A stretch of DNA of 64,000 nt, taken from Styela clava (taxonomy: Eukaryota). This document shows positions 48,001 to 57,000 of the stretch, piece after piece. Within the stretch, counting starts at the first letter, position 1, and each line of letters begins with the position of its first letter. Location: contig NC_135253.1 of assembly GCF_964204865.1 (NCBI RefSeq), positions 16,120,001-16,184,000 on the forward strand. The letters run 5' to 3'. A program made the position numbers.

Positions 48001-51000
48001 ACCGACCAGCGGTTACGTGAACCACCCTACGGCGGCGAGGAGTCCAGGAATCCTCTCGCACATGATCACCCCCGCATGCGATCCCACGAAGGATAATCAG
48101 AGCTTCGGTGGCGAGCGTATTCCCAACGCTTAGCACGATGCGCCACACCGCCGAATATAGGGAACTTTTCGATTTGTAATTCTGCCGTCTGCCGCTTCGG
48201 TTTCAAGTTTGCCACAAGACGACAACAAATGTGCTATATTATAAAATATGCCATATGTATGATTCCATATTTATTTTAAAATATTAATAACGATTAGGAA
48301 CCTGATAAACAGTCATCATTGCTGTCCTACATATTCAGTATTCATAGACTTGGTCCACAGGATAAAGCAGAAATCATCATGCGGTATTGGCCATGGGTCG
48401 AGAAGGACTGTACTCAAAACACGAATCTATGCCGTAGATAATTTACTAGTATTATCCGAATATTATAATTCCTGAATTTACATCTCATCTTCAGGATTTA
48501 GTAATAATGATAATAAGCATCGAAAATTGAAGGCTTGGAGGGGAACACTGGTCCATTGTCATATAAAGGCCATTATTCTATAGCTTTTCTTGGATTTGCC
48601 TGTCATTAGCACAATATAAATAAAATATAAGAAAAGTAATGAAAATGAAGTGATATAAATTAAATTTCTACTGCAAATGGGTGTTATGGAATAGGTTGAA
48701 GCTTATAATGCAAAATCATATCACTGCTTGATTTCCAAATTAAATGTTTCACAGTACGCAGATCTAATGATGGATCGAGAACTTGCTCCTGGCATAACAG
48801 CACAACTTTGTCCATAATCACAGATGATTTATCTATATCAGTCTTAGCAGCATCAGTGTTACCAGTTGGGGTAGACTTCTTACTATTGCTTGAAGTATCA
48901 TGTTTATCTGCATTTGCAGTTGGAGATGCTGTCGGCGTGCTTGATGATGTTTGAGTTGAATCCTCTTCCAAACATAAGACTTTCTCATATACATGCTCCA
49001 TTACTTTACGTATTGAGAGCATGTCACTTGCAGACAATCTATCCTTTTTGAGATTTTTTATTGATGAGTTAGGATGCGGATGCAAATAAAATGGAATTTT
49101 AACAAACTTTGTGGGTATCTTTTTCTCAACAGCAGTATCAACTACCCACTGTGGAACAGTGTCTCGCAATAACATAGACTCCGATTCCCCTGCAGCATCT
49201 CGACAGAGTAAGCGAAACAATGTACGACCACCTACTTCACTAAATATTACTGGAGTGTGGCCAGGGACTGAAAAATATCTATTTCCCTTAATAATTTTAT
49301 GAGGTCTTTGTTTGTGGCTCGGTGAACGTTCACCTTCTCTATCATTCTTCTCATCACTGTCATTTTCCGACGTGTCTTCTATGTGTAAATGTGTACTTGG
49401 CCAATGTTCCAGCAATGCCTGCAGCAACAAACCACCATAATTAAGCTTGGTACTGGGATCTGAATTTTCAAATCCCGCTACATCTTTTGCTGTAACCCAG
49501 GCAGAAAAACAGTCAGGTTCTTCTAAATGTATACTCAACATGCCGAGTTTTAAATCGACACTAAACCAATTTGGAACATAAAGCATTTTTTCTCTTTTTT
49601 TAACTTCGGCTTCGAAATCCTTTTCTGCAAGATCTTCTAATTTTCTTGCAATGAGTACATCCCATAATGCTATATTATTGTCAGTGTCCTTTGTCAATAT
49701 ATGTCTTTTATCTGATAATATTTTGTAATGAAAAATACTTGCTTCACCAGGGAATGTATATGAAGGTTGCGTAAACTCGGGCTGTGTTGTAGTCAAAAAC
49801 TCCTCTTCAGACATCACCTCATCAAATGATCCACCTGTGGAAGCTCCATTTATATCTGATTGCCCCTTCAATGGCCAAACATTGACTGCGGAACTAGTTG
49901 TTGCGACAAAAATCTCATTCGTATTTTCTCGAGAATTCACCAGTAGTTTCAACACAGGAGCATTTTCTTCACAAACGACGTATTTCGAGGCATCTGGATC
50001 ACATAAATCAGTGCACACAACCCTTCTGTCTCTCCCAGATGAATAAATTTTGGTGAAAGATGAAGCATTGTCACCTTCCGCAGCAGCGAGAGCCCACACT
50101 CCCTCACTGTGTATATGCATTGTAAGAATACATCTCTGTTGCCCGAGAGACCACAGACGTATTGTGCCATCTGAGCTACCAGATAATACTTGTGTACCAT
50201 CTCTATTCACCAAAAGTGCTTTAACATTATCTGTATGTCCTTTCAATTTCATTTTTTTATCACATGTACGTGGGTCCCAGACTCGAAGAACTCTTTCTGT
50301 CGAACCTGCGACCATAACAGTCCCTGCAGCATTCATTGCTAAGCTGTATATTGACTGCTTACAACCATTCACATTAGATGTTGTAACAGTATTCCGAGCT
50401 GTAGTAAGAGCTGTTAATGTATTAACATCCCATATAAATATTTGTCTGTCGAGGCCAGCACTCGCGACATGTTCGCGATGTCTTGCATATGCTAATGCTC
50501 TCACATAATCCTTATGTGTACGTAATGTAGACATACAATACCCTCGATGGGCGTTCCAAACCTTTACAGTTGTGTCAGAAGATGCAGAAATCAAAGTTCG
50601 GTTGTTGCAACAAAGTACAATATCATTTACCCAGTCAGTGTGATGTTCCATTGATGCTTCATAAGAACCTCTGTTCATTTTTCCATGTTTTTTAGAATTA
50701 TCCATTTCTTTTTGAGCAGACTCACAATCCCACATTCTGATAATTGAATCTCTTCCAGCAGTGAATAAACGATTTGCAACAGGATCATATTGTAGAGCAT
50801 TAATACCAGAGCGATTCAGCATTTCCACTTTATCACGAATGATATACGACACCTGAATCTTTTTCCGTGATAACGATGGATCTCGACGTTGATGCATTGC
50901 CATTTTTTATAACATCAAATTGAAGTCTCTTTACATTAAAAATCTTAATCTAATTCATTCTAGAAGATTTTTCTGAAATAACAGATATCACATCACCGGT

Positions 51001-54000: not shown

Positions 54001-57000
54001 GTCACATTCGATGGATTTGAAGGTGCAACCAACGTTCTTACAAGTTTCAGCATGAGATGCAAATTCGCAACTTTTTGTGCAGACCATACAGACTCTGAAT
54101 CAATTTCAAAAAATGGTGTCAAACGCTGCACAAATGAACCTTCTTTGAAAAATTGCTGGTTTGATGTGTTTCTCTTTAGTAAATGTAGTAACAACAAAAG
54201 GCAATCTTCTACTACAACTCCACCATCACTCATCCCTTCTGCCCTTATTATATCCAAAATAATATCAAAGCCATTTTCAAAAGCAATAATTTTTTGAATG
54301 TTGGAATTTCCACGCGTCAGTTCTATGAGCAACAATAACGCATCATTTCGAATGACCTCTCTTGAATCGGTCAATAAATCGATTAGTCGAGATATACCCA
54401 TGGGTTTCATAAGCACAGTTTCTTGTATTTTACCAGGTTGACCTTTCAGTAATGAAATCATAAGCCGTAGTGCGGAGAGTCGAACACTAAAATCATATCG
54501 CTCAACGAAATCTAATACCACATTTATATTATTCTCTTCTGCGGTAAATTTTTCGACAAATGTACGAGTTAATTCAGGTTGCGGAACTACGTCATCATCT
54601 TCTTCCATATCAGACATAAGATTGCATAATGTATCGAGTGCGTATGCCACCATTTCATCATCATTTGCGTCTTGATCTAAAACAGTAGCAATATGAGCCA
54701 TTCCCTGTGTGCCAACTTCATATCTAAACTTTCTCGACAATGATTTTAATGCACGAACAGCATCTCGACGATCTTCAAGGAGCGTAGATGATGCAACACG
54801 ATCACAAAGTCTTGATACGGTTTCTGCTCCACTCGGCTGTTGCTCATCACTGCCTTTCACAAATGATTTAAAATAATTCATTTTGTAATGCTGTTTATTG
54901 ATATCTATTTATGAAAAAAGAAAATGAAATAGTTAGTGGTTTTGACTATTTTTTTACTGGATTTGGGGTATTGGTCCAATGCTTCCATTCCCCAGAAGTT
55001 TTTATAGCAGTCAAACAAGTCTGCGAGTGTATGTTTTGGTGGGCAATATGGCACTTGGAAATGGAAGTGCCTTTTCAAAACCAGCCTACGCCTAACCCCG
55101 TGTATCATTTCGGGAGATTCTATAATTACAGTAATTTCATTCTGTTTCTACGTACTTTTATGTCAATCATGTAGAAAGTGCAGATCTGCATTAAGAAGGC
55201 GGATCGAAAGAAATTCAAAATCTTGACAGTCTTTGTCAATATGGATGGACAAGCTGGTGTTGGACAAATGAAGCTTTATTTTTATGAAATAAAACAGCGG
55301 GATCTAACGACTTAGCAGTTAAAAAATTTACAATTTAGATTTTTATAATCTTGGTAAATTTGAGTTTACCCTCACACTTTGATCGCCCTGTACTTCGAAA
55401 AGCTTTTGCAACACTGATACTTCATAATTCTGGCAATAATACAGTACTGGATAGGCCTGCAAATTGGGGTATGAAATAACCACTGGTAATAAAGATATAA
55501 CTTTATACAGTTACAAAGTTATAACTACAGATGTAAAGTTTGAATAAAAAAATTTTCAAACTCAAAATTTGATTCTATTTATTGCAACAATCTATATAAG
55601 ATACATATATATAATCTTTGAGGCCACTATGTGAGAAAAAAATAGTGATGTAAAGTGTGGATAATGCATATAACTGTATAACGATAGACTGATAGAGGAG
55701 AAAGACATTCAAAACATTTTCATTATGACCTTTGCTCAGTCTATCAGTTTTTTGAAATCAAGCGCTGTAGGGAGTGTAAAGTGCTTGTTTACTTTCCAAA
55801 CTCACCTATGTTACATGGTGATATCACTAAGGTAAACAGTGGTTCAGTACCACCTGTTGTTATGATGTCAGTACCAGTATGGGGTAAAATTTAAGTTAGG
55901 TATACTACTAGACTACAAATAAACAATTGGTCAACTGTGTTTAAGTATATTTTGATTTCTTTTCTGATATATTCAGCAACTTCTTGTTACCATTTATGTA
56001 TTGTTGTATTAGCTTTATTAATGAATCAAAACAAACTAAACTTTTTTTTTAAATGGTTCACTCCATAAGTGATTTTAATTAAGTTTCTTAATTTTTTCCA
56101 ATAATTCGTTTGCATAAACTTTGTAATTCTTTTGCAAAGGGTTTGTTTACTCTAGAATTTTTTCTATATATTATGGCCATTTTTATCTGCATTTTAAAGT
56201 GAGCAATATCAGGTGTTTTATATTCAAATATACCGTAATCGAATATCTCATGATCCAAATTTATATCACTCTGTTGATAACAAAAAATTAATTGCTTTCA
56301 AATCTACAGTAGCTACCGGTATATGACAAAATAAAGAATCATCGAAATTAAATAATATGCAAAAATCATAATTTATAACAAAATGTATTTTTATATAATT
56401 AAATAAACGAAATCATCATACATTTTCTGGGAAAATTCACAAGACATGAATATATGTGAAATAAACTCAGGTTCCTCATTGTATAATACACACATTTCAT
56501 TTTTTCCTATTTTTTTTTAATCTATGGCTTAGTTTACAAAGAAAAAATATCCCAAGGAATTTATAGTTGAAAGTTTTTATATAATTTGTATATAACTTCG
56601 TCATTTATATGGTAATATTGTTTGCCCATTTTGATATCATACGCATTTAAACTATTATTTCCTAAAAAATCAATTACACTTTTATAATACTCGTGTGGAA
56701 TAAATCTATGTACCATACTATTATTTAATGGTAGTGGTAATGGTGTTTTCTATATATTCAAATACACACATACCAGGAATATAAATAAATATTGTAAAAA
56801 TTCATTTACAATTTCATTTACTTTTTGAGAAATATATTTTGGCATTGAAAATATTTTGCATAAAAACAAAATTTGCGGTAATAACTCAAGTTTTACTATC
56901 AAACACTTTCCTTCTGACGAAATAAGTATTTTTTGAGGATCAGCCACTATTTTTTCACTTATTCCAGTTCAAGTTTCCAGTATTAGTATTAGCAGAAATC

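What the first reader, a model, noticed from the sequence alone, without database searches (positions are those of the whole stretch)
48684..54940. Probable USO1-WDR48 dicistronic operon resolved by trans-splicing
Seen: the two housekeeping genes are co-oriented about 1 kb apart. On the minus strand an AATAAA (51028-51023) is followed within about 50 nt by a strong acceptor tatttcAG (50973), which lies 69 nt before the WDR48 ATG. No promoter-like island was noticed between the genes. Known: tunicates and nematodes resolve operons by spliced-leader trans-splicing next to the upstream poly(A) site. Inference: WDR48 has no promoter of its own and is released from a USO1-WDR48 precursor.
Basis: partly seen in the sequence, partly recalled or inferred. 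Interest (0 to 1): 0.75.

Follow-up and report, generated by a model that had tools for sequence, protein, structure and literature searches.

The report
Possible two-gene operon in a tunicate
Two intron-free housekeeping genes of a sea-squirt-like animal lie head to tail in a layout that fits a shared transcript cut apart by trans-splicing, a known kind of gene organisation in these animals, but no RNA evidence could be checked.

Summary
USO1/p115 (982 aa) and WDR48 (739 aa) are complete single-exon genes on the minus strand, 1029 nt apart. The spacer holds one AATAAA (51028-51023), 50 nt before a good acceptor (AG 50974-50973), which lies 69 nt before the WDR48 ATG. The organism is a tunicate outside the Ciona/Phallusia/Clavelina clade.

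An operon resolved by spliced-leader trans-splicing is my best reading (0.55), but it is not shown. In favour:
- The only canonical poly(A) signal for USO1 abuts the acceptor.
- The 904 nt before it are free of poly(A) signals.
- The whole spacer is G+T-rich on the sense strand.
- USO1's coding sequence has no donor-like sites (0 against 4.35 expected).
- Both genes are single-exon, as is common in Ciona operons.
- A distant relative probably carries both genes on one 5878-nt contig.

Against:
- Most Ciona operons lack AATAAA and have no intercistronic DNA.
- Ascidian promoters have no CpG islands, so "no promoter island" says nothing.
- Ciona outrons are also G+U-rich and about 100-460 nt long, so a promoter inside the spacer remains possible (0.3).

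No transcript data or related tunicate genomes were available. If real, it is a new member of a known kind.

The parts
55000..55006 (-). TATAAAA, candidate TATA box of the USO1 (first-gene) promoter. A CA lies about 33 nt downstream (54973-54972).
   Evidence: Read. Position rule from PMC4691747. Inference only.
54891..54930 (-). Pyrimidine tract followed by AG (54906-54905) and a second AG (54892-54891), 23 and 9 nt before the USO1 ATG. Candidate trans-splice acceptor(s) of USO1.
   Evidence: Read. Motif only, no RNA data.
51933..54881 (-). USO1/p115 coding sequence, single exon, 982 codons plus stop.
   Evidence: It has 0 donor-like sites (at least 7 of 9 matches to MAG|GTRAGT), against 4.35 +/- 1.78 in 1000 synonymous shuffles.
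51000..51932 (-). Spacer, predicted to be the USO1 3'UTR (about 930 nt). In the operon model it also serves as the outron of WDR48.
   Evidence: Unique in the window. No Rfam match. Sense-strand G+T is 0.564 against 0.504 +/- 0.023 in the background. All four quarters are 0.545-0.595. No AATAAA or ATTAAA in its first 904 nt.
51023..51028 (-). AATAAA, the only canonical poly(A) hexamer between the two coding sequences.
50975..51014 (-). GU/U-rich stretch after the hexamer (a candidate downstream element of the poly(A) site) that runs into the pyrimidine tract of the acceptor. Cleavage is expected near 51007-51000.
   Evidence: Read. The spacing rule (cleavage 10-30 nt after AAUAAA, then a GU/U-rich element) is established knowledge, recalled.
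50973..50974 (-). AG of the candidate trans-splice acceptor (gttatttcAG|a).
   Evidence: Resembles the real acceptor ttatttcAG|g of the trypsin-like gene.
50904..50972 (-). Predicted 69-nt WDR48 leader with three mini-uORFs (ATG at 50958, 50936 and 50915, each stopped within 2-3 codons).
48684..50903 (-). WDR48 coding sequence, single exon, 739 codons plus stop.
   Evidence: Acceptor-like sites (at least 8 of 12 pyrimidines, then YAG): 3 against 9.32 +/- 2.70 in synonymous shuffles. Donor-like sites are not depleted: 6 against 5.27.
48270..48683 (-). Predicted WDR48 3'UTR, ending with the first AATAAA after the stop codon (48275-48270).
51244..51249 (-). Donor-like TAG|GTATGT (7 of 9). With the acceptor at 50973 it would define a 277-nt cis intron. 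Belongs to a rival reading.
   Evidence: It is the only site of that strength in the spacer, where 1.8-2.1 are expected by chance.
51015..51020 (-). Weak donor-like AAG|GTATTG (6 of 9) directly after the AATAAA. It would define a 48-nt cis intron. Belongs to a rival reading.
   Evidence: The four introns of the trypsin-like gene are about 150-506 nt.
51121..51126 (-). TATAAG, 153 nt upstream of the acceptor. Possible TATA box of a WDR48 promoter of its own. Belongs to a rival reading.
   Evidence: It is one of 5 TATAA in the spacer, so a chance match is likely.

Best explanation
USO1 and WDR48 form a dicistronic transcription unit of the tunicate kind.

Inferred steps:
1. Transcription starts upstream of USO1. 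A TATAAAA lies at 55006-55000, and a pyrimidine tract with AG just before the USO1 ATG suggests that USO1 is itself trans-spliced.
2. The polymerase runs through USO1 and its roughly 930-nt 3'UTR.
3. The precursor is cleaved and polyadenylated some 17-24 nt after the AATAAA at 51028-51023.
4. The spliced leader is joined at the AG at 50974-50973, about 26-33 nt further on. This gives a capped WDR48 mRNA with a 69-nt leader.

Shown: gene identities, intactness, orientation, the positions of the signals and their statistics.
Inferred: every RNA-level step (the poly(A) site, SL addition, the precursor, and the absence of a WDR48 promoter).
For: (1) The organism is a tunicate. The best named relatives of both proteins are ascidians. 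In trees it sits in a well-supported clade (98/96) apart from Ciona, Phallusia and Clavelina. SL trans-splicing and operons are documented in Ciona and Oikopleura (PMC1488885, PMC7986045).

(2) The sole canonical poly(A) hexamer in the 1029-nt spacer lies 50 nt before the best acceptor. The preceding 904 nt lack AATAAA and ATTAAA, as do only 8.3% of 4478 control windows. The other two genes examined also have AATAAA as the first canonical hexamer after the stop: trypsin-like gene at 153 nt, WDR48 at 409 nt.

(3) Sense-strand G+T of the spacer is 0.564. Only 1.3% of 1115 control windows deviate as much. The excess holds in all four quarters, and the flanks outside the pair are near 0.5. This fits transcription across the whole spacer.

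(4) The USO1 coding sequence has 0 donor-like sites, against 4.35 expected; 3 of 1000 synonymous shuffles reach 0. WDR48 has 6 against 5.27. This is what a precursor carrying a functional acceptor downstream of USO1 predicts, because acceptors paired with an upstream donor splice in cis (PMC1488885).

(5) Both genes are single-exon. In Ciona 38% of operon genes against 15% of other genes are single-exon, and 60% of first genes in operons are (PMC2760879). The trypsin-like gene in this window has at least 4 introns, so the genome is not intron-poor overall.

(6) In a relative, USO1 (P0124) and WDR48 (P0007) are each listed with a longest contig of 5878 nt. Both sit at matching positions in the two trees, each as the shorter-branched member of a close pair on a long branch, in the sister group of the window species plus its nearest relative.

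(7) The pair is isolated. No other coding signal was found within several kb on either side.
Against: (1) No RNA evidence of any kind could be consulted. No SL RNA gene lies in the window.

(2) The layout differs from the documented ascidian type. In Ciona the poly(A) site abuts the acceptor AG, 16 of 18 operons lack AATAAA within 40 nt, and the median intercistronic distance is 1 bp.

(3) AATAAA followed by an acceptor-like site occurs by chance at 22 of 237 AATAAA sites.

(4) G+U- and A+U-richness is also the reported signature of Ciona outrons (PMC11155486; PMC4691747). So point 3 above fits a WDR48 promoter of its own at the far end of the spacer equally well.

(5) Outrons peak at about 100 nt, and TATAA motifs exist at 51126, 51202, 51393 and 51798.

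(6) One donor-like site (51249, 7 of 9) lies upstream of the acceptor.

(7) Three uATGs lie in the predicted leader.

(8) The same-contig inference rests on equal contig lengths only.

(9) Adjacency is not ancestral. In Clavelina the two genes are on contigs of 19.5 and 28.8 Mb. In Oikopleura operons are not preserved by rearrangement (PMC11067885), so conserved linkage is weak evidence for an operon.

(10) The splice-site statistics are post hoc. About 17 tests were run, and acceptor-like sites are not depleted in USO1 (9 against 4.60).
Confidence: 0.55

Rival explanations
1. Two separate transcription units. WDR48 has its own promoter without a CpG island inside the spacer, overlapping or following the USO1 3'UTR. 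It makes an outron of about 100-900 nt and is SL trans-spliced at 50973 as a monocistronic gene.
For: Most trans-spliced Ciona genes are monocistronic: 9850 trans-spliced among 12397 non-operonic genes, against 1404 operonic genes. Outron length peaks near 100 nt, with mean 438 and median 458 nt, and outrons are G+U- and A+U-rich like this spacer. TATAAG at 51126-51121 would give an outron of about 120 nt, and other TATAA lie at 51202, 51393 and 51798. Variant hexamers (AATATA at 51696, AATGAA at 51390) could end USO1 earlier.
Against: The only canonical poly(A) signal for USO1 lies after every candidate promoter. So the promoter would sit inside USO1's 3'UTR and its outron would carry that signal. 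The first 904 nt are free of poly(A) signals (8.3% tail). The G+T excess begins right at the USO1 stop codon and is uniform. TATAA occurs 5 times in 1029 nt of AT-rich DNA, so a chance match is likely. Such tight tandem spacing is unusual in this gene-poor window.
Confidence: 0.3
2. The acceptor at 50973 is the 3' end of an ordinary cis intron in a WDR48 5'UTR. The donor is at 51249 (277-nt intron) or 51020 (48-nt intron), and a non-coding first exon is transcribed from a promoter in the spacer.
For: TAG|GTATGT at 51249 scores 7 of 9. That equals the weakest of the three trypsin-gene donors recovered by the scan, which score 7 to 8. A 277-nt intron lies within the range of about 150-506 nt seen in the trypsin-like gene. 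AAG|GTATTG follows the AATAAA directly.
Against: One site of at least 7 of 9 in the spacer is at or below chance: 1.8 expected from the window density and 2.13 from shuffles. The donor at 51020 scores only 6 of 9, lacks G at +5, and would give an intron shorter than all 4 introns measured here. In Ciona the intron size peaks are near 300 and 60 nt (PMC4122922).
Confidence: 0.07
3. Conventional, non-trans-spliced neighbours. The acceptor-like motif and its closeness to AATAAA are chance features of AT-rich DNA, and WDR48 starts at a capped site close to its ATG.
For: 9.3% of AATAAA sites have such a motif downstream by chance. 2535 of the 12397 non-operonic Ciona genes showed no trans-splice acceptor site. 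No SL RNA gene was found in the window.
Against: The motif is the best acceptor in the spacer and nearly identical to a real one. USO1 has a similar pyrimidine tract plus AG just before its ATG. Donor-like sites are missing from USO1, which has no obvious cause if no functional acceptor follows.
Confidence: 0.05

Closest known systems
Ciona intestinalis/robusta SL-resolved operons (Satou et al. 2006, 2008)
   Same: Ascidian host. Same-strand, mostly two-gene units. A single SL serves both monocistronic and operon genes. Single-exon genes are over-represented, especially as the first gene. The genes are functionally unrelated housekeeping genes.
   Different: In Ciona the upstream poly(A) site abuts the acceptor AG (median distance 1 bp), and 16 of 18 operons lack AATAAA within 40 nt. 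Here a canonical AATAAA lies 50 nt before the AG, which predicts an intercistronic stretch of about 26-33 nt. The predicted upstream 3'UTR is also long, about 930 nt. Nothing here is confirmed by cDNA.
Oikopleura dioica operons (Ganot et al. 2004, seen only as cited in PMC1488885; PMC7986045)
   Same: Tunicate host with a single SL. Short intercistronic regions of 23-30 nt (median 31 bp in SLOPPR), which match the spacing predicted here.
   Different: Oikopleura upstream cistrons are reported to lack AATAAA. Its genome is extremely compact, whereas this window is gene-poor and carries transposon remains.
Caenorhabditis elegans SL1-type operons
   Same: A canonical AAUAAA in the upstream cistron, very little intercistronic sequence, and resolution by the general SL rather than a specialised one (as described in PMC1488885).
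   Different: A nematode, with its own SL family. The C. elegans cases have essentially no intercistronic sequence. No homology is implied.
Monocistronic SL trans-spliced ascidian genes with outrons
   Same: A strong acceptor shortly before the ATG, preceded by an A+U- and G+U-rich region of a few hundred nt.
   Different: These need their own promoter. Here the upstream region is bounded by another gene's stop codon, and that gene's only canonical poly(A) signal lies at the acceptor.

Membership tests
Tunicate SL-resolved operon | Adjacent genes on the same strand, transcribed in the same direction | tested here: met
   Both coding sequences are on the minus strand, with 1029 nt from stop codon to ATG.
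Tunicate SL-resolved operon | Distance from the upstream mRNA 3' end to the downstream trans-splice acceptor under 100 bp (Ciona operational definition) or at most 60 bp (Oikopleura) | tested here: inconclusive
   Only predicted signals are available. AATAAA lies 50 nt before the AG and is the sole canonical hexamer in the spacer. No 3'-end data. Definitions.
Tunicate SL-resolved operon | The downstream gene's mRNA carries the spliced leader at an unpaired acceptor | not testable with these tools
   A motif of good quality is present. One donor-like site lies upstream at 51249, at chance level. No RNA reads were accessible.
Tunicate SL-resolved operon | The organism has an SL RNA and SL trans-splicing | not testable with these tools
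   No SL RNA gene in the window. Rfam gave 0 hits. The Ciona 16-mer matched only at 3 mismatches, 6 times against 2.97 expected. Tunicate placement makes it likely by phylogeny only.
Tunicate SL-resolved operon | An unresolved dicistronic precursor exists | not testable with these tools
   Hint only: relatives P0124 (USO1) and P0007 (WDR48) both list a longest contig of 5878 nt.
Tunicate SL-resolved operon | No independent promoter or TSS for the downstream gene | not testable with these tools
   TATAA motifs exist in the spacer. Ascidian promoters lack CpG islands, so sequence alone cannot decide.
Ciona-type operon (no intercistronic DNA) | The poly(A) site coincides with the acceptor AG, and there is usually no AATAAA within 40 nt upstream | tested here: inconclusive
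   AATAAA ends 50 nt before the AG, so it lies just outside the 40-nt span. A canonical hexamer with a GU-rich stretch after it predicts cleavage about 26-33 nt before the AG, which is unlike the Ciona majority.
WDR48/UAF1 protein family | N-terminal WD40 propeller plus C-terminal DUF3337 region, full length | tested here: met
   Pfam WD40 2.2e-36 and DUF3337 8.4e-42 (residues 546-735). 60% identity over 99-100% of the length to named WDR48 proteins.
USO1/p115 vesicle-tethering family | Armadillo tether repeat, Uso1/p115 head, and coiled-coil C-terminal region with an acidic tail | tested here: met
   Pfam Arm_vescicular 8.9e-30, Uso1_p115_head 3.4e-53, Uso1_p115_C 2.7e-13. 50-56% identity over about 96% of the length to named p115 proteins.

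The most novel reading that the evidence does not exclude
The pair is an ascidian operon of a type not described for Ciona, and it has three unusual features.
(a) It has a canonical AAUAAA, an intercistronic stretch of about 25-30 nt, and a roughly 930-nt upstream 3'UTR that doubles as the outron.
(b) Its two intron-free cistrons show complementary purging of splice-site mimics. There are no donor-like sites in the upstream gene (0 against 4.35 expected) and few acceptor-like sites in the downstream gene (3 against 9.32). In the two coding sequences no donor-like site of that strength precedes an acceptor; one chance-level donor-like site (51249) in the spacer does precede the acceptor at 50973. 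If general, this would be a sequence-only signature of polycistronic precursors.
(c) It could also reflect how the pair arose: loss of all introns from both genes at once, by recombination with a cDNA of a cis-spliced but unresolved dicistronic transcript. That would explain the unexplained excess of single-exon genes in ascidian operons.
Probability: 0.12. Interest if true: 0.6.

Novelty: new member of a known kind. Interest (0 to 1): 0.3.

Why it matters
Operons resolved by spliced-leader trans-splicing are well documented in Ciona and Oikopleura, where they hold about 10-27% of genes. One more candidate in another tunicate lineage is therefore not surprising in itself.

It would still be useful in three ways.
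(1) It would be an example outside the Ciona/Phallusia/Clavelina clade with a canonical poly(A) signal and a short intercistronic stretch. That bears on whether the Ciona type (no intercistronic DNA) or the Oikopleura type is ancestral.
(2) Two large housekeeping genes (982 and 739 codons) with no introns, in a genome whose other genes have ordinary introns, bear on the open question of why single-exon genes are enriched in ascidian operons.
(3) The complementary lack of donor mimics upstream and acceptor mimics downstream could, if it holds genome-wide, help predict operons where no SL-anchored data exist.

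Tried and rejected
SL RNA gene in the window: none. Rfam at gathering threshold gave 0 hits over 64 kb. Rfam at E up to 1 on 46000-56000 gave 0. The Ciona SL 16-mer matched only at 3 mismatches, 6 times against 2.97 expected, and 7 of 100 shuffles reached 6.

SL remnant in the WDR48 leader (the retrogene idea): the best match has edit distance 5, which occurs about 7 times per kb. Rejected as chance.

Fused USO1-WDR48 gene models, which are a known annotation artefact of operons: among proteins of 1295-3695 aa, 292 had E up to 1e-50 and 120 were listed. 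The 7 hits covering at least 86% of WDR48 are from catfishes (2), Trichinella (4) and Anopheles (1). None is from a tunicate, and no Uso1 domain appears in the (truncated) Pfam lists shown. This is weak evidence.

Repeats: the spacer and the USO1 upstream region have no other copy in the window, so the spacer is not a transposon insertion.

48-nt intron (51020-50973): considered and largely rejected. The donor is weak (6 of 9), and the intron would be shorter than the 4 introns measured.

Adjacency as evidence for an operon: down-weighted after reading that Oikopleura operons are not preserved.

G+T skew as a discriminator: down-weighted after reading that Ciona outrons are G+U-rich.

Literature: two searches listed no paper that holds USO1 or WDR48 together with operon or tunicate terms, or that proposes cDNA-mediated intron loss of whole operons. 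In one search all 10 listed papers had 0 occurrences of both gene names. PMC13746493 held none of the terms operon, trans-splicing, single-exon or intronless.

Supplements are closed. The operon lists of Satou 2006 and 2008 and of SLOPPR might show whether the Ciona USO1 or WDR48 sits in an operon. I could not see them.

Synteny in related tunicate genomes and all transcript evidence therefore stayed unchecked.

No complex prediction was run, because no binding claim is made. No structure prediction was needed.

The species was not determined.

The only spliced gene examined, the trypsin-like gene, was searched exon by exon. The joined model was not made.

Full report
WHAT IS THERE

The window is AT-rich eukaryotic DNA (GC 0.28-0.42 in 2-kb bins). 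It has no N, no tRNA gene and no Rfam family at gathering threshold.

On the minus strand lie two long uninterrupted reading frames.
- 54881-51936 translates to 982 residues. Pfam finds Uso1_p115_head (3.4e-53), Arm_vescicular (8.9e-30) and Uso1_p115_C (2.7e-13).
- 50903-48687 translates to 739 residues. Pfam finds WD40 repeats (2.2e-36) and DUF3337 (8.4e-42).

Both align end to end with named p115/USO1 and WDR48 proteins. Their N-termini match the orthologues. They are complete, single-exon genes.

The contig is not human. The best named relatives are ascidians:
- WDR48: Phallusia 61%, Clavelina 60%, Ciona 60% identity.
- USO1: Clavelina 56%, Phallusia 61% over 76% of the length.
- Unnamed proteins reach 88-89%.

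In maximum-likelihood trees of 14 WDR48 and 13 USO1 proteins, the window's proteins fall with unnamed relatives in a clade (98/96 and 97/93 support) separate from Ciona, Phallusia and Clavelina. I did not determine the species.

THE OBSERVATION

- AATAAA at 51028-51023.
- tatttcAG with its G at 50973.
- ATG at 50903, with 69 nt between acceptor and ATG.
- 1029 nt from the USO1 stop codon to the WDR48 ATG.

The hexamer is the only AATAAA in the spacer and there is no ATTAAA, although the window averages 1.85 and 1.05 per kb per strand. Among 4478 control windows of 904 nt outside the locus, 19.5% lack AATAAA and 8.3% lack both.

Right after the hexamer comes a GU/U-rich stretch that runs into the pyrimidine tract of the acceptor. 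That is the usual make-up of a cleavage and polyadenylation site (recalled knowledge).

The acceptor is one of only three pyrimidine-rich YAG sites in the spacer. It is nearly identical to a real acceptor of the trypsin-like gene in this window.

The co-occurrence alone is weak evidence. 22 of 237 AATAAA sites in the window are followed within 15-60 nt by an equally good acceptor-like site.

WHAT THE LITERATURE SAYS ABOUT TUNICATE OPERONS (passages read in find mode)

Ciona operons:
- The upstream poly(A) site abuts the acceptor AG with no intercistronic DNA.
- 16 of 18 operons lack AATAAA within 40 nt.
- Oikopleura has intercistronic regions of 23-30 nt, and its upstream cistrons also lack AATAAA.
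- SLOPPR gives median intercistronic distances of 1 bp (Ciona) and 31 bp (Oikopleura) (PMC7986045).
- Operons were defined operationally as same-strand pairs less than 100 bp apart. They hold about 20% of genes.
- 38% of operon genes are single-exon against 15% elsewhere, and 60% of first genes in operons are single-exon (PMC2760879).

Ciona promoters and outrons:
- Promoters show no CpG-island signal and 15.6% have a TATA box.
- Outrons have a mean of 438 nt and a peak near 100 nt (PMC4691747).
- Outrons are G+U- and A+U-rich, with a median of 458 nt.
- 9850 of 12397 non-operonic genes are trans-spliced.
- 1404 of 13801 genes are operonic under a strict definition (PMC11155486).

In Oikopleura, operon structures are not preserved by genome scrambling (PMC11067885).

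AATAAA beside the acceptor is atypical of the Ciona type. It is closer to the spacing seen in Oikopleura, and to the C. elegans SL1-type operons mentioned in PMC1488885.

NEW EVIDENCE BEARING ON ONE PRECURSOR

(a) Strand composition. The spacer's sense strand has G+T 0.564 against 0.504 +/- 0.023 in 1115 control windows, and 1.3% of these are as extreme. All four quarters are raised (0.545, 0.545, 0.595, 0.570). The 2 kb upstream of USO1 and the 2 kb downstream of WDR48's AATAAA show skews near zero. This fits transcription through the whole spacer. It fits a long outron as well as a 3'UTR.

(b) Splice-site mimics. Donor-like sites were scored as at least 7 of 9 matches to MAG|GTRAGT.
- USO1 coding sequence: 0 observed, 4.35 +/- 1.78 in 1000 synonymous-codon shuffles, and 3 of 1000 shuffles reach 0.
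- WDR48 coding sequence: 6 observed, 5.27 expected.
- At the looser threshold of 6 of 9: USO1 15 against 20.19 (P 0.076); WDR48 30 against 24.14.

Acceptor-like sites show the reverse pattern.
- WDR48: 3 against 9.32 (P 0.008) at 8 of 12 pyrimidines, and 0 against 2.84 (P 0.051) at 9 of 12.
- USO1: 16 against 12.84, and 9 against 4.60, so not depleted.
- The patterns TTTYAG and TTYAG show no depletion in either gene.

So, apart from one chance-level site at 51249, no donor of that strength precedes an acceptor anywhere in the 6.2-kb unit. A precursor that carries a functional acceptor after USO1 predicts the absence of donors in USO1, because paired acceptors splice in cis. These are post hoc tests, about 17, on two genes. 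I treat them as suggestive.

(c) Intron status. The trypsin-like gene at about 32340-30507 (minus strand) has at least four introns of about 150, 190, 260 and 506 nt. Its exons were searched one by one, with Trypsin hits at 4.4e-9, 3.1e-6 and 1.2e-6. The lack of introns in two large housekeeping genes is therefore a property of this pair, not of the genome. Their vertebrate orthologues have many exons, which I state from memory.

(d) Relatives. The USO1 relative P0124 (71% identity; 2 contigs, longest 5878 nt) and the WDR48 relative P0007 (61%; 1 contig, 5878 nt) share the same longest-contig length. In the trees each is the shorter-branched member of a close pair on a long branch. In the USO1 tree that pair is sister to the window species plus its nearest relative. 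In the WDR48 tree the pair, together with P0006, holds that sister position. They very probably come from one organism and one contig.

P0007 has a 27-residue N-terminal extension absent from all orthologues. The real coding sequences would therefore fill about 5097 nt, leaving about 780 nt for both flanks and the spacer.

Other unnamed relatives carry USO1 on contigs 560-1070 nt longer than the coding sequence: 3849, 4022 and 3370 nt. That would fit a long 3'UTR if these are transcripts.

In Clavelina the two genes are on contigs of different length, 19.5 and 28.8 Mb. The linkage is therefore not ancestral to ascidians.

THE USO1 5' END

A long pyrimidine tract with AG (54906-54905) and a second AG (54892-54891) lie 23 and 9 nt before the ATG. 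A TATAAAA lies at 55006-55000, with a CA about 33 nt downstream. This looks like a promoter, a short outron and a trans-splice acceptor. USO1 would then be the first gene of the unit. No further gene was found upstream within the window on that strand.

WEIGHING

Starting from Ciona-like base rates, a same-strand pair with 1 kb between coding sequences is roughly as likely to be an operon as not. The odds are better in a gene-poor region such as this one.

These points raise the odds moderately:
- single-exon status, especially of the first gene;
- the sole poly(A) signal lying at the acceptor;
- the 3' stretch free of poly(A) signals;
- the absence of donor-like sites in USO1;
- the probable conserved linkage.

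These points lower the odds:
- the atypical AATAAA and spacing;
- the long predicted 3'UTR;
- the three uATGs in the leader;
- the TATAA motifs at outron-like distances;
- the complete lack of RNA evidence.

My estimates are 0.55 for the operon, 0.30 for an independent promoter with monocistronic trans-splicing, 0.07 for a cis-spliced 5'UTR intron, and 0.05 for chance motifs without trans-splicing.

NOVELTY AND VERDICT

If real, this is a new member of a known kind. It has a layout closer to Oikopleura or to C. elegans SL1-type operons than to the Ciona majority.

Two searches listed no paper linking USO1 and WDR48 with operons or tunicates. Related tunicate genomes and all read or contig collections that could hold transcripts were unavailable. 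The decisive data therefore remain to be looked at: SL-bearing 5' ends at 50972, USO1 3' ends, capped starts in the spacer, and molecules spanning both genes.

Interest is modest (0.3). The boldest reading still open concerns the complementary purging of splice-site mimics and a possible one-step loss of all introns through a dicistronic cDNA. I give it about 0.12.

Noticed in passing
window 51933-54881 and 48684-50903 (minus strand): Complementary splice-mimic pattern. The USO1 coding sequence has 0 donor-like sites (4.35 expected), but acceptor-like sites are not depleted (9 against 4.60). The WDR48 coding sequence has few acceptor-like sites (3 against 9.32), but donor-like sites are not depleted (6 against 5.27). 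All expectations come from 1000 synonymous shuffles.
   Followed up: partly
window 30507-32340 (minus strand): Trypsin-like serine protease gene with at least four introns of about 150-506 nt. Exons hit Pfam Trypsin one by one. AATAAA lies 153 nt after its stop codon (30354). The first exons and signal peptide were not mapped.
   Followed up: partly
window 7746-11260 (minus strand): Broken pieces of an LTR-type retrotransposon: RNase H (2.4e-13), a weak reverse transcriptase match (5.1e-4, below the cut-off) and a gag zinc knuckle (4.6e-5), in separate frames.
   Followed up: partly
window 46271-48270: A GC- and CpG-richer block (GC 0.41, CpG observed/expected 1.25) begins right after WDR48's AATAAA. 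The spacer, by contrast, has CpG observed/expected 0.37. No Pfam or Rfam match. Nature unknown: a transposon piece or a regulatory island.
   Followed up: partly
window 47442-47595 and 38254-38415: A dispersed repeat of about 160 nt, with two copies at 79% identity.
   Followed up: no
protein P0007 (unnamed relative, contig of 5878 nt): Its reading frame runs 27 codons upstream of the conserved WDR48 start, so the contig extends at least 81 nt beyond the ATG. The residues just upstream (F-S-L-C-S-R) could all be encoded by a pyrimidine tract followed by AG, as if an acceptor were read in frame.
   Followed up: no
window 54894-54899 (minus strand): An AATAAA lies directly before the second candidate acceptor AG (54892-54891), 13 nt before the USO1 ATG. 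No gene was found upstream on that strand, so this is probably a chance match in AT-rich DNA.
   Followed up: no
window 43822-44256 (plus strand): An open frame of 144 codons with an acidic, serine-rich stretch and no Pfam match. It may be an exon of an unidentified plus-strand gene, or it may be chance.
   Followed up: no
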